Of a stretch of DNA of 64,000 bases, positions 5,516 to 6,622 are shown in pieces (the stretch's first letter is position 1; each line of letters starts with the position of its first letter). The notes beneath the pieces were generated by a model. It was not told where the DNA came from. It saw nothing but the letters and a program-made list of their open reading frames with translations, and ran no database searches. The stretch is from assembly GCF_053078305.1 (NCBI RefSeq), contig NZ_CP166879.1. One strand, 5' to 3'. A program made the translations under genes and the position numbers.

Positions 5516-5731
5516 AAATATTTGACTAATATCATTTGATATCTATGGAGAGAAAAGTACCCTTGTCGAATCTTTAAAGAAAGCTCATTTACGCATCATT
5601 TTTTATTTTTGCGAGGCGTTTTCCAGATATGATGTAACAGTTGCAGTTATTATAAGTTCAAGTAAAACAGCCTTGTATTAATACCAGAATAAGGGCATCT
5701 GTTTTTTATATTCAAGAATGAAAAATTTTTG

Positions 5732-5977
5732 TCATTCCTTATGCTCCTTACACTGATCATCAACACCAACTACCTCCCCCTTTTGCCTGCCTCCCTTTGC
5801 TTTACGCACCGGGAATTGCTGACGTTCCAGATATTGCTCTACCGCTTCGCGTAAAATTGCAGATCGTGAAACCTTACGCCAGCCACGAAGCTTGTTCAGC
5901 CGTTTAATTGCCTCTTCTGATAAATGAAGAAAAACCGTATTCATCGGCATTGCCACCCTCTTACATATATTACTCAT
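5732..5977 (-). CDS. yiiE: Ribbon-helix-helix (CopG-like) small DNA-binding protein, paralogue of yiiF; start may be an internal Met
   Basis: 81-aa ORF (…NTVFLHLSEEAIKRLNKLRGWRKVSRSAILREAVEQYLERQQ…) sharing the LREAV(D/E)QYL core with the neighbouring ORF. Confidence 0.75.
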   Translation of the reverse strand: MSNICKRVAMPMNTVFLHLSEEAIKRLNKLRGWRKVSRSAILREAVEQYLERQQFPVRKAKGGRQKGEVVGVDDQCKEHKE

Positions 5978-6622
5978 TAATGTATGTGCGAAAATTACGC
6001 CGGAAAATTAATTAACGAAAGCGGATTTTTGCATGTTGTTTTGTTTTTGCGAGACGTTTTCCAGAAATAATAAGAGCGTTGCAGTTGTTTCATTTGTTAC
6101 TCAAAAATGGTTTAGTTATCGCCCAGGATGAGTTATGGGTGCTATGAATATATTATATTCAGGGATATTTATTTGCATAATCTGAATGGTGTAGCCGAAA
6201 AACGTCAGCATCCTAACAGCACCAGGATTTAAGGTGAAATTAATCTTCCATCACAGACCGGTCAGTACTGCCACCAACCGGTCTTTACTTGCTCATCGTT
6301 ATAATTTTGTTGGTAACAGTTCGGGAAACAAGGAATTCCTTCCGGAACACCCCCGGCATCATCCGATAGCATTGACGTCAATCATCGGCTCGACGGTGAG
6401 TTTTTTTAATCGCATCATAGGGTGGCAACGTTCAGCACGATACGGGTCATAACAAAACTCCTGAGCAGCGGCACTATGCCGCTTTCACAGGAGTTCTGAA
6501 TGCTGGTGCTTTCTGTATGGCTTCGCCATGCCCCTCGCGGCTAAGCGCCTGCACACTTCTCTCTGTATTTCATTTTTGCAATGCATTGGCCGAATTCTGA
6601 TAATCCTAATGAGTTTTACTCT

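What the first reader, a model, noticed from the sequence alone, without database searches (positions are those of the whole stretch)
5516..6100. Tandem paralogous RHH genes yiiF/yiiE each preceded by a copy of the same upstream module
Both small RHH genes have a related upstream sequence: 5586..5650 (…tttttgcgaggcgttttccagatatgatgtaacagttgcagttatt…) and 6022..6090 (…tttttgcgagacgttttccagaaataataagagcgttgcagttgtt…). The duplication therefore included the promoter/operator, and the conserved gttgcagtt / ttttccaga blocks are candidate autoregulatory operators for RHH repressors. The pair lies directly beside the AT-rich insertion, which hints at a possible role as xenogeneic regulators; that link is speculative.
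Basis: seen in the sequence. Interest (0 to 1): 0.4.

Follow-up and report, generated by a model that had tools for sequence, protein, structure and literature searches.

The report
Competence-type CRP site before orphan antitoxin genes
The two small E. coli genes yiiE and yiiF are leftover antitoxin genes of an old toxin-antitoxin pair, and the sequence they share upstream matches the published motif of a CRP/Sxy ("competence") activator site rather than a binding site for their own proteins.

Summary
Windows 5552-5651 and 5990-6089 are a gapless 100-nt repeat, 72% identical, with a local alignment z of about 22 against shuffles.

The best-kept core (21 of 22 nt) reads TGCGA-N6-TTCCA on the + strand. 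That is the published E. coli CRP-S (Sxy-dependent CRP) motif, and it closely resembles the validated site in the sxy promoter.

The same site sits at a fixed distance upstream of yiiF orthologues in about 19 enterobacterial genera. There a single yiiF is followed directly by a PIN-domain vapC toxin gene. So YiiF is an orphaned VapB-type antitoxin, and yiiE is an Escherichia-specific tandem copy of antitoxin plus promoter. Of 5426 complete E. coli genomes, 57 still carry yiiE-yiiF-vapC.

The family's likely own operator is a GATATA palindrome next to the start codon. It is intact where vapC survives and decayed in this window.

The predicted layout, a CRP-S promoter plus an antitoxin-controlled proximal element, resembles E. 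coli hicAB. A sigma-54 promoter and a structured RNA were tested and rejected. Induction by Sxy was not tested. The original Sxy microarray paper could not be read, so prior listing of these genes cannot be excluded.

The parts
5273..5491 (-). yiiF: RHH VapB-type antitoxin gene, now without its toxin (72 aa from Met9; the ORF can be extended to the ATG at 5515, giving 80 aa)
   Evidence: ORF list and K-12 annotation. Orthologues in about 19 genera are followed by a PIN vapC gene. The C-terminal motif AFGxW..EDGxEYQxxLRxEW is shared across the family. Pfam RHH_1 is below threshold, E=0.011.
5732..5950 (-). yiiE: Escherichia-specific tandem paralogue of yiiF, with a conserved RHH domain and a degenerate C-terminal tail
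   Evidence: Pfam RHH_1, E=1.2e-11. 41% identical to YiiF. Homologues were found only in Escherichia and Shigella. The tail has lost the GIW and YQRKLREEW motifs. dN/dS is about 0.25, with all changes in the tail.
5552..5651 (-). Duplicated upstream module, yiiF copy
5990..6089 (-). Duplicated upstream module, yiiE copy
5607..5628 (-). Predicted CRP-S (Sxy-dependent CRP) site of yiiF. The core is 5610-5625: + strand TGCGAGGCGTTTTCCA, gene strand TGGAA-AACGCC-TCGCA.
   Evidence: Exact match to the published motif. Conserved at a fixed distance in orthologues. Resembles the Psxy site.
6045..6066 (-). Predicted CRP-S site of yiiE. The core is 6048-6063: + strand TGCGAGACGTTTTCCA.
   Evidence: 21/22 identical to the yiiF copy.
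5554..5582 (-). Inferred sigma-70 promoter P1 of yiiF: -35 TTTCTT (5582-5577), 17-nt spacer, -10 TACTTT (5559-5554)
   Evidence: TAnnnT lies 65 or 66 nt from the start of the CRP-S core in 42 of 44 orthologous loci. This puts the site centre at about -69.5 or -70.5. This is inference; no TSS data were found.
5992..6020 (-). Inferred sigma-70 promoter P1 of yiiE: -35 TTTCGT (6020-6015), -10 TAATTT (5997-5992)
   Evidence: Same register as in yiiF and the orthologues. Inference.
5518..5543 (-). Decayed remnant of the family's proximal operator and SD region. Three (G/A)ATAT boxes remain, 10-11 nt apart; the canonical form is TGATATACTGGAGGTATATATG.
   Evidence: The canonical form is conserved in other genera and in an E. 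coli strain that keeps vapC. GATATA palindromes also occur in distant homologues.
5963..5987 (-). yiiE-specific proximal inverted repeat, ACATACA-N11-TATATGT, just upstream of the SD. Candidate YiiE operator.
   Evidence: Read from the sequence. The same element precedes the YiiE-N/YiiF-C chimera that controls an intact vapC in E. albertii. Inference.
5640..5648 (-). Escherichia-specific, function unknown.
6078..6086 (-). AACTGCAAC block, yiiE copy
5260..5273 (-). Probable stump of the lost vapC start. TAATGGGAAAAAA overlaps the yiiF stop; compare TAATGGCAAAAAG at the start of the intact vapC in E. albertii.
   Evidence: Sequence comparison. tblastn finds no vapC in the window.

Best explanation
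yiiF is the antitoxin gene (RHH VapB type) of an old chromosomal vapBC toxin-antitoxin operon. That operon lies between fabY and fdhE throughout the Enterobacteriaceae. In an Escherichia ancestor the antitoxin gene was duplicated in tandem together with its whole regulatory region, which produced yiiE. Later the PIN toxin gene vapC was lost in most E. coli, including this window, leaving two orphan antitoxin genes.

The best-conserved part of the shared upstream module is a CRP-S site (gene strand TGGAA-N6-TCGCA). At such sites cAMP-CRP needs the competence co-activator Sxy (TfoX) to activate transcription. The site is predicted to be centred near -70 of a weak sigma-70 promoter (P1), a class-I position.

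Closer to the start codon lies the antitoxin's own operator. In the yiiF family it is a GATATA/TATATC palindrome overlapping the SD and an extended -10-like TGATATACT. In yiiE it is a different inverted repeat. The predicted two-tier control resembles E. coli hicAB: activation by Sxy/CRP from the distal site, and autorepression at the proximal one.

Shown: the repeat, the motif match, its conservation and spacing, the synteny with vapC, and the decay of the proximal element where vapC is gone.

Inferred: the P1 hexamers, the operator assignments, and actual Sxy/CRP dependence.
For: Motif:
- Sondberg et al. 2019 (PMC6728893) give the E. coli CRP-S motif as T4G5C6G7A8-N6-T15T16C17C18A19. They state that it is asymmetric, works in either orientation and acts in a class-I-like manner.
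- The window has exactly two exact matches, at 5610-5625 and 6048-6063, against 0.16 expected.
- The validated K-12 Psxy site TTTTCGGAAAGAGCCTCGCAAA matches the E. albertii yiiE copy TTTTTGGAAAGAGTCTCGCAAA at 20/22. It matches the window half-sites at 9/10.

Conservation:
- 39 of 49 non-Escherichia yiiF loci have the exact motif at the same position.
- 44 of 49 match a relaxed form, and the half-sites are conserved while the spacer varies.
- The distance from the site to the Met9 codon is 115-117 nt in most loci, although the sequence in between varies.
- Across the 62 fetched loci, every exact match lies about 95-190 nt upstream of a TA-type gene. These include an unrelated 103-aa RelE/HigB-like toxin plus HTH antitoxin operon.

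Precedent:
- hicAB P1 carries a CRP-S site and its P2 is repressed by the antitoxin.
- Sxy overexpression induces chpSB, higBA and hokD.
- K-12 chpS and higB have similar elements upstream.

TA ancestry:
- The fabY-yiiF-vapC-fdhE synteny holds in about 19 genera.
- vapC is intact in E. albertii.
- 57 of 5426 complete E. coli genomes keep full-length vapC, and 2245 have at least a remnant.
- Strain 2016C-3878 carries yiiE-yiiF-vapC-fdhE with the canonical proximal element.

Selection: dN/dS is 0.2-0.8 for yiiF, about 0.25 for yiiE and 0.02 for fdhE.
Against: - No expression, TSS or binding data for yiiE or yiiF could be found.
- The Sxy microarray paper (Sinha et al. 2009) is not held.
- The -35 and -10 hexamers are weak. 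The consensus promoter scan reports nothing on the gene strand.
- Ten of 49 orthologous loci deviate from the exact core (for example TCGTA, TGGAT), and five of those fail even the relaxed pattern.
- The predicted site centre of about -70 rests on an inferred TSS.
- Sites this close to TGCGA-N6-TTCCA might also bind CRP without Sxy, or bind another factor.
- In vapC-less strains yiiF may be decaying: it is frameshifted in the closest genome. The site there could therefore be a relic.
Confidence: 0.65

Rival explanations
1. The shared blocks are autoregulatory operators bound by YiiE and YiiF themselves.
For: RHH antitoxins usually repress their own promoters (established knowledge). The module lies upstream of both genes. 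AACTGC-AACTGT looks like a short tandem repeat in four of five Escherichia copies.
Against: The TGGAA-N6-TCGCA core is the same in front of paralogues with different DNA-reading beta-strands. It also precedes an unrelated HTH-antitoxin operon. It is missing from distant YiiF-family loci, which instead share GATATA palindromes at the start codon. It sits 90-110 nt from the start codon, whereas the conserved palindrome abuts it.
Confidence: 0.1
2. The core is a sigma-54 promoter (GG-N10-GC spacing: TGGAAAACGCCTCGCA).
For: The GG and GC dinucleotides have the correct spacing, and the spacer between them is variable.
Against: A PWM built from 50 ChIP-verified E. coli sites scores the module at 1.7-6.6 bits. 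The verified sites score at least 7.9 (median 15.8), and 180-400 positions in the window reach the module's score by chance. There is no sigma-54 ChIP-seq peak or gSELEX hit at yiiE or yiiF. Several genera have lost the obligatory GG or GC.
Confidence: 0.03
3. The similarity has no present function. It is only a relic of the duplication, or the result of gene conversion between the tandem copies.
For: The copies are adjacent, and recombination between them clearly happens: YiiE-N/YiiF-C chimeras exist. In E. coli the yiiE spacer resembles the yiiF spacer more than it does in E. fergusonii or E. albertii. yiiF shows relaxed selection.
Against: Third codon positions of the paralogues are near saturation (39% identical), yet the core is 21/22. 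The same core is kept in single-copy orthologues of about 19 genera at constant spacing, and only the spacer varies. Upstream sequences group by orthologue rather than by species, so conversion is not pervasive.
Confidence: 0.12
4. The element is an ordinary (Sxy-independent) CRP site, or the site of another, unidentified dimeric regulator.
For: One half-site (TCGCA) also occurs in the classical gal CRP site (from memory). The bipartite 5+6+5 layout fits many dimeric regulators.
Against: Neither half-site has the T6 of canonical TGTGA. This is the stated hallmark of enterobacterial CRP-S sites. The pairing of one TGCGA half with one TTCCA/TTCCG half is what Sondberg et al. found necessary for Sxy dependence.
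Confidence: 0.1

Closest known systems
E. coli hicAB toxin-antitoxin operon (Turnbull & Gerdes 2017, as summarised in PMC11594946 and PMC6957337)
   Same: A chromosomal type II TA locus with a distal promoter that carries a CRP-S site and is activated by Sxy/CRP, and a proximal element controlled by the antitoxin.
   Different: hicAB has the toxin first, with a HicB antitoxin, and its P2 yields antitoxin only. Here the antitoxin comes first (RHH) with a PIN toxin. In this window the toxin is gone and the antitoxin-plus-promoter unit is duplicated. The two promoters here are predicted, not mapped.
CRP-S site of the E. coli sxy promoter (Jaskolska & Gerdes 2015; Sondberg et al. 2019, PMC6728893)
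   Same: Asymmetric CGGAA/TGGAA-N6-TCGCA with the conserved TGCGA half nearest the promoter and A/T-rich flanks. The match is 20/22 to the E. albertii yiiE copy.
   Different: The window copies begin TGGAA rather than CGGAA and have other spacer bases. Function is shown experimentally for Psxy only.
RHH-PIN toxin-antitoxin systems (VapBC of the RHH class; FitAB of Neisseria gonorrhoeae)
   Same: A small RHH antitoxin with a C-terminal toxin-binding tail, an overlapping PIN toxin gene (in orthologues), and an inverted-repeat operator at the promoter.
   Different: No toxin gene is present in the window. YiiE has lost the toxin-binding motif. NCBIfam VapB and VapC models match only below their cut-offs.
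Haemophilus influenzae toxTA (PMC6957337)
   Same: A TA operon recruited into the CRP-S/Sxy competence regulon.
   Different: It belongs to an unrelated protein family (RelE/ParE type), has the toxin first, and is from the Pasteurellaceae.

Membership tests
CRP-S (Sxy-dependent CRP) promoter | Asymmetric 16-bp core TGCGA-N6-TTCCA (E. coli form), with no T6 in either half-site | tested here: met
   Exact matches at 5610-5625 and 6048-6063, with 0.16 expected per window. Motif as given in PMC6728893. The no-T6 rule is from PMC1635313.
CRP-S (Sxy-dependent CRP) promoter | Resemblance to an experimentally validated CRP-S site | tested here: met
   K-12 Psxy is TTTTCGGAAAGAGCCTCGCAAA. Half-sites match 9/10 with the window copies, and the E. 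albertii yiiE copy matches 20/22.
CRP-S (Sxy-dependent CRP) promoter | Site at a class-I distance upstream of a sigma-70 promoter | tested here: inconclusive
   A conserved TAnnnT 65 or 66 nt downstream of the core start puts the centre at about -69.5 or -70.5. However, the TSS is inferred and the hexamers are weak.
CRP-S (Sxy-dependent CRP) promoter | Transcription induced by Sxy and dependent on cAMP-CRP | not testable with these tools
   No data were found in the held papers. Sinha et al. 2009 is not held.
Type II toxin-antitoxin, RHH antitoxin + PIN (VapC) toxin | Ribbon-helix-helix DNA-binding domain in the antitoxin | tested here: met
   YiiE matches RHH_1 at E=1.2e-11. YiiF is below threshold (E=0.011) but aligns throughout.
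Type II toxin-antitoxin, RHH antitoxin + PIN (VapC) toxin | Adjacent, overlapping toxin gene | tested here: not met
   There is no vapC in the window. It is present in orthologous loci of about 19 genera, in E. albertii and in 57 complete E. coli genomes. The window genes are therefore orphan antitoxins derived from such a system, not a complete system.
Type II toxin-antitoxin, RHH antitoxin + PIN (VapC) toxin | C-terminal toxin-binding tail in the antitoxin | tested here: inconclusive
   YiiF keeps the family motif [22 protein letters not shown]. In YiiE it is degenerate. Binding itself was not tested.
Type II toxin-antitoxin, RHH antitoxin + PIN (VapC) toxin | Palindromic operator at the promoter, bound by the antitoxin | tested here: inconclusive
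   TGATATAC-N5-GTATATA is conserved in orthologues and in vapC+ E. coli. GATATA palindromes occur in distant homologues. The element is decayed in the window. There are no binding data.
Sigma-54 promoter | -24 GG / -12 GC elements that score like known sites, and sigma-54 occupancy | tested here: not met
   The spacing is right, but the PWM gives 1.7-6.6 bits against at least 7.9 for verified sites. No ChIP-seq or gSELEX signal.
Structured cis-regulatory RNA or sRNA | Conserved secondary structure or an Rfam match | tested here: not met
   RNAalifold on 24 orthologues predicts 0 pairs. Rfam has no hit in the module at E<=1.

The most novel reading that the evidence does not exclude
The CRP-S site is a portable control cassette that places a whole set of toxin-antitoxin-type operons under the competence co-activator Sxy across the Enterobacteriaceae. 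In the fabY-fdhE hotspot these are yiiF-vapC, yiiE and a RelE/HigB-like plus HTH pair. On this reading, E. coli keeps YiiE and YiiF as Sxy-induced orphan antitoxins with a new job. One possibility is neutralising related VapC toxins that arrive on incoming DNA. For YiiE, with its changed DNA-reading strand, another is acting as a dedicated repressor within the Sxy response.
Probability: 0.15. Interest if true: 0.7.

Novelty: new member of a known kind. Interest (0 to 1): 0.45.

Why it matters
It gives two uncharacterised K-12 genes (yiiE, yiiF) an evolutionary origin and a concrete regulatory hypothesis that can be tested. It would add a VapBC-type locus, conserved across the Enterobacteriaceae, to the small set of toxin-antitoxin operons tied to the Sxy/CRP competence regulon (hicAB, higBA, chpSB, H. 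influenzae toxTA). It also offers a natural series for study: an intact operon in about 1% of E. coli, toxin remnants in many others, and full loss in the rest. In that series the antitoxin's own operator decays after toxin loss while the activator site is kept.

Tried and rejected
- Sigma-54 promoter. The idea came from the GG-N10-GC spacing. It was rejected on the PWM score and on the absence of ChIP-seq and gSELEX peaks.
- Structured leader or sRNA. Rfam gives nothing in the module, and RNAalifold predicts no pairs in 24 orthologues.
- Strong sigma-70 promoter by consensus scan. None is reported on the gene strand.
- TSS look-ups in the Cappable-seq and SMRT-Cappable-seq supplements. The held files are truncated or lack the genes.
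- ChIP-exo supplements for uncharacterised TFs. yiiE and yiiF do not appear.
- Reading Sinha et al. 2009 by PMC id and by DOI. It is not held.
- Supplement of Cameron & Redfield 2006. It is not held.
- First related-loci scan with a nine-sequence alignment.
- By-eye comparison of the core with the remembered consensus sites of many E. coli regulators (canonical CRP, CpxR, PhoB, DnaA, MetJ, Fur and others). None fitted as well as CRP-S. These comparisons were from memory and are not tests.
- A small leader ORF across the core. Start and stop codons are not conserved among the orthologues.

Full report
**What is in the window.**

The window is E. coli chromosome. Reading left to right, the genes are fdoI and fdhE (+), yiiF (-, 5273-5491, with the ORF extendable to 5515), yiiE (-, 5732-5950), and a 614-aa ORF (-, 6623-8467). 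That ORF sits within the low-GC stretch at about 5100-8700, which also contains yiiF and yiiE. Next comes fabY/yiiD (-).

YiiE matches Pfam RHH_1 (E=1.2e-11). YiiF matches only below threshold. The two proteins are 41% identical.

**Checking the observation.**

- The repeat finder returns a gapless 100-nt direct repeat, 5552-5651 versus 5990-6089, at 72% identity and spacing 438.
- A local alignment of the two upstream regions scores 45. Dinucleotide shuffles give 11.2 +/- 1.5, and no shuffle or other real DNA window from the same 64 kb exceeds 20.
- The gene-plus-upstream units align end to end.
- The upstream core is far better kept than the genes. A 22-nt stretch is 21/22 identical. The RHH-coding DNA is 57% identical, and its third codon positions are 39% identical, which is close to saturation.
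- The module is core-genome DNA. It is found in 5412 of 5426 complete E. coli genomes, at a median of two places per genome.

**What the genes are.**

A profile search and a scan of one genome per species gave 49 loci outside Escherichia. They carry about 19 named genera: Citrobacter, Klebsiella, Enterobacter, Salmonella diarizonae, Kosakonia, Lelliottia, Trabulsiella and others. In nearly all of them a single yiiF orthologue sits in the same fabY...fdhE slot. It is followed immediately by a PIN-domain gene of about 123 aa, whose best NCBIfam matches are VapC models below their cut-offs.

More distant homologues share the tail motif AFGxW..EDGxEYQxxLRxEW, and where checked they are paired with a PIN gene. 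YiiF is therefore a VapB-type antitoxin.

All the stages of change can be seen within Escherichia:
- E. coli 2016C-3878 has yiiE-yiiF-vapC-fdhE.
- 57 of 5426 complete E. coli genomes keep full-length vapC, and 2245 keep at least a remnant.
- E. fergusonii-type contigs keep yiiE, yiiF and the first ~29 codons of vapC.
- E. whittamii keeps yiiE and a C-terminal vapC remnant.
- E. albertii has one gene that is YiiE in its N-terminal half and YiiF in its C-terminal half, followed by an intact vapC. This points to recombination between the tandem copies.

In the window vapC is gone. Only a TAATGGGAAAAAA stump remains, next to REP-like DNA.

YiiE homologues were found only in Escherichia and Shigella. 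Its RHH part is conserved, but its tail has lost the toxin-binding motif. dN/dS is 0.2-0.8 for yiiF, about 0.25 for yiiE and 0.02 for the neighbouring fdhE. yiiF is annotated as frameshifted in the closest complete genome.

**What the shared module is.**

Aligning the upstream regions of the orthologues shows three conserved pieces separated by variable sequence of constant length.

The distal piece is TCTGGAAAG-nnn-CTCGCAAAAG. Its two arms are conserved, its spacer varies, and it ends 115-117 nt before the Met9 codon in most loci. On the other strand it reads TGCGA-N6-TTCCA.

Sondberg et al. 2019 give exactly this as the E. coli CRP-S motif of Sinha et al. 2009. CRP-S is the class of CRP site that needs the competence co-activator Sxy. 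The motif is asymmetric, works in either orientation and activates in a class-I-like way. Cameron & Redfield 2006 note that enterobacterial CRP-S half-sites never carry the T6 of canonical TGTGA, and that holds here.

Supporting counts and comparisons:
- The window has two exact matches, at 5610-5625 and 6048-6063, against 0.16 expected.
- 39 of 49 non-Escherichia loci have an exact match at the homologous position.
- The validated site in the K-12 sxy promoter, TTTTCGGAAAGAGCCTCGCAAA, matches the E. albertii yiiE copy at 20/22.
- The same exact motif also turned up about 125-175 nt upstream of a different operon inserted in this hotspot in several genomes. That operon encodes a 103-aa RelE/HigB-like toxin and an HTH antitoxin.
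- Across all 62 loci fetched up to that point, exact matches occur only upstream of TA-type genes.
- K-12 chpS and higB are reported to be induced by Sxy overexpression. Both carry related elements upstream: TGCGAGACGACTCGCA and CCGAGCCGCTTTCCA for chpS, and TGGAATCGCGCTTCCA for higB.

**The rest of the architecture (inferred).**

A TAnnnT hexamer lies 65 or 66 nt downstream of the start of the CRP-S core in 42 of 44 loci. A T-rich, -35-like CTTTaaC lies 17 nt upstream of that hexamer. If these are the -10 and -35 of a promoter P1, the CRP-S site is centred at about -69.5 or -70.5, which is a class-I position. In the window the hexamers are at 5554-5559 and 5577-5582 for yiiF, and at 5992-5997 and 6015-6020 for yiiE.

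The third conserved piece abuts the start codon. It is TGATATAC-TGGAG-GTATATATG, an inverted repeat that includes the SD and an extended -10-like TGATATACT. Distant family members, which keep the RIL.D beta-strand, have GATATA/TATATC palindromes at the same place and lack the CRP-S element. This proximal palindrome is therefore the likely VapB/YiiF operator.

The palindrome is intact in the vapC+ E. coli strain. In the window it has decayed to ATGATATTAGTCAAATATTTATG, and it has also decayed in K-12.

yiiE has a different proximal inverted repeat, ACATACA-N11-TATATGT at 5963-5987, and a different beta-strand, NTVFLHL. In E. albertii the same pairing of repeat and beta-strand controls an intact vapC.

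**Mechanism proposed.**

cAMP-CRP together with Sxy binds the distal site and activates P1. The antitoxin, alone or with the toxin, acts at the proximal repeat. This is the two-tier logic described for E. coli hicAB, where P1 is a CRP-S promoter and P2 is repressed by the antitoxin. A similar logic has been inferred for H. influenzae toxTA.

The duplication copied the whole control region. The two copies then kept the activator site but diverged in the operator and in the DNA-reading strand.

**Rivals.**
- A sigma-54 promoter was my first idea, because of the GG-N10-GC spacing. It fails a PWM built from 50 ChIP-verified sites, and there is no sigma-54 ChIP-seq or gSELEX signal.
- A structured RNA is excluded by Rfam and by RNAalifold.
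It cannot be excluded for the Escherichia-specific AACTGCAAC block. That block varies among species and has no assigned function.
- A pure relic, or gene conversion alone, does not explain conservation in single-copy orthologues of many genera.

**Limits.**

Nothing here shows transcription, Sxy dependence or protein binding. No TSS data could be retrieved. No held paper mentions yiiE or yiiF together with Sxy. The primary Sxy microarray paper is not held, so these genes may already be listed there.

**Verdict.**

The finding is a new member of a known kind, a toxin-antitoxin-derived locus in the CRP-S regulon. It is of moderate interest and can be tested directly.

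Noticed in passing
window 6623-8467 (-): A 614-aa ORF fills part of the low-GC stretch between yiiE and fabY and is intact here. In the closest RefSeq genomes the same DNA is annotated as a 'transposase' plus a truncated 'hypothetical protein'. It has no Pfam family above threshold and no sequence match in the PDB. It contains a CKSAKDRT stretch that recalls CX5R phosphatases (from memory, untested).
   Followed up: partly
window 5146-5228: Two sub-threshold Rfam matches (ES036 at 36.8 bits and naRNA4 at 35.4 bits), i.e. 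REP-like repeats. They occupy the gap between yiiF and fdhE where other genomes carry vapC.
   Followed up: partly
window 3535-3551 (+), inside fdoI: CTGGCGCGAATTCTGCA is the top sigma-54 PWM hit in the window. It is the same sequence as the intragenic sigma-54 ChIP-seq site IS47 in fdoI reported by Bonocora et al. 2015.
   Followed up: partly
L004 1203-1944; L003 1468-1949; L018 1245-; L028 918-; L062 70-: A second TA-type operon (103-aa RelE/HigB-like toxin, then a 96-aa HTH protein) is inserted between fabY and yiiE/yiiF in several genomes. It has its own exact CRP-S motif, a perfect palindrome GTACGTCAATGACGTAC, and a consensus TATAAT directly abutting the toxin ATG. This layout resembles the hicAB P2 arrangement.
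   Followed up: partly
L025 about 2290-2400 and most non-Escherichia loci; L061 about 2310-2330; compare L063 4940-5010: A LexA-box-like CTGT-N8-ACAG (e.g. CTGTATGGATATACAG) lies about 60 nt upstream of the CRP-S site, in front of a divergent 308-aa alpha/beta-hydrolase gene. The K-12 sulA-sxy intergenic region has the same pairing of a LexA box and a CRP-S site. It is unclear whether this is coincidence or a link between SOS and competence.
   Followed up: no
L004 3001-3219 (P0092); also P0088: In E. albertii and some E. coli-labelled contigs the antitoxin is a YiiE-N/YiiF-C chimera. This implies unequal recombination between the tandem paralogues at the shared LREAV(D/E)QYL codons.
   Followed up: partly
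L066 2770-2845 (K-12, upstream of chpS): The chpS upstream region holds a symmetric TGCGAGACGACTCGCA. It also holds CCGAGCCGCTTTCCA, which is 14/15 identical, spacer included, to the yiiF-orthologue core GCGAGCCGCTTTCCA.
   Followed up: no
L010, L011, L033: Contigs deposited under Bacillus coahuilensis, uncultured Robinsoniella and Chryseobacterium sp. 18061 carry enterobacterial yiiE/yiiF-fdhE DNA. They are probably contaminants or mislabelled assemblies.
   Followed up: no
P0119 (101 aa); L028 2501-2803: One homologue is an antitoxin fused to the last ~20 residues of VapC (...LREEWYERVTRNTKDFARIPGVMTPYYL). This looks like an internal deletion of the toxin gene in another lineage, so toxin loss has happened more than once.
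   Followed up: no
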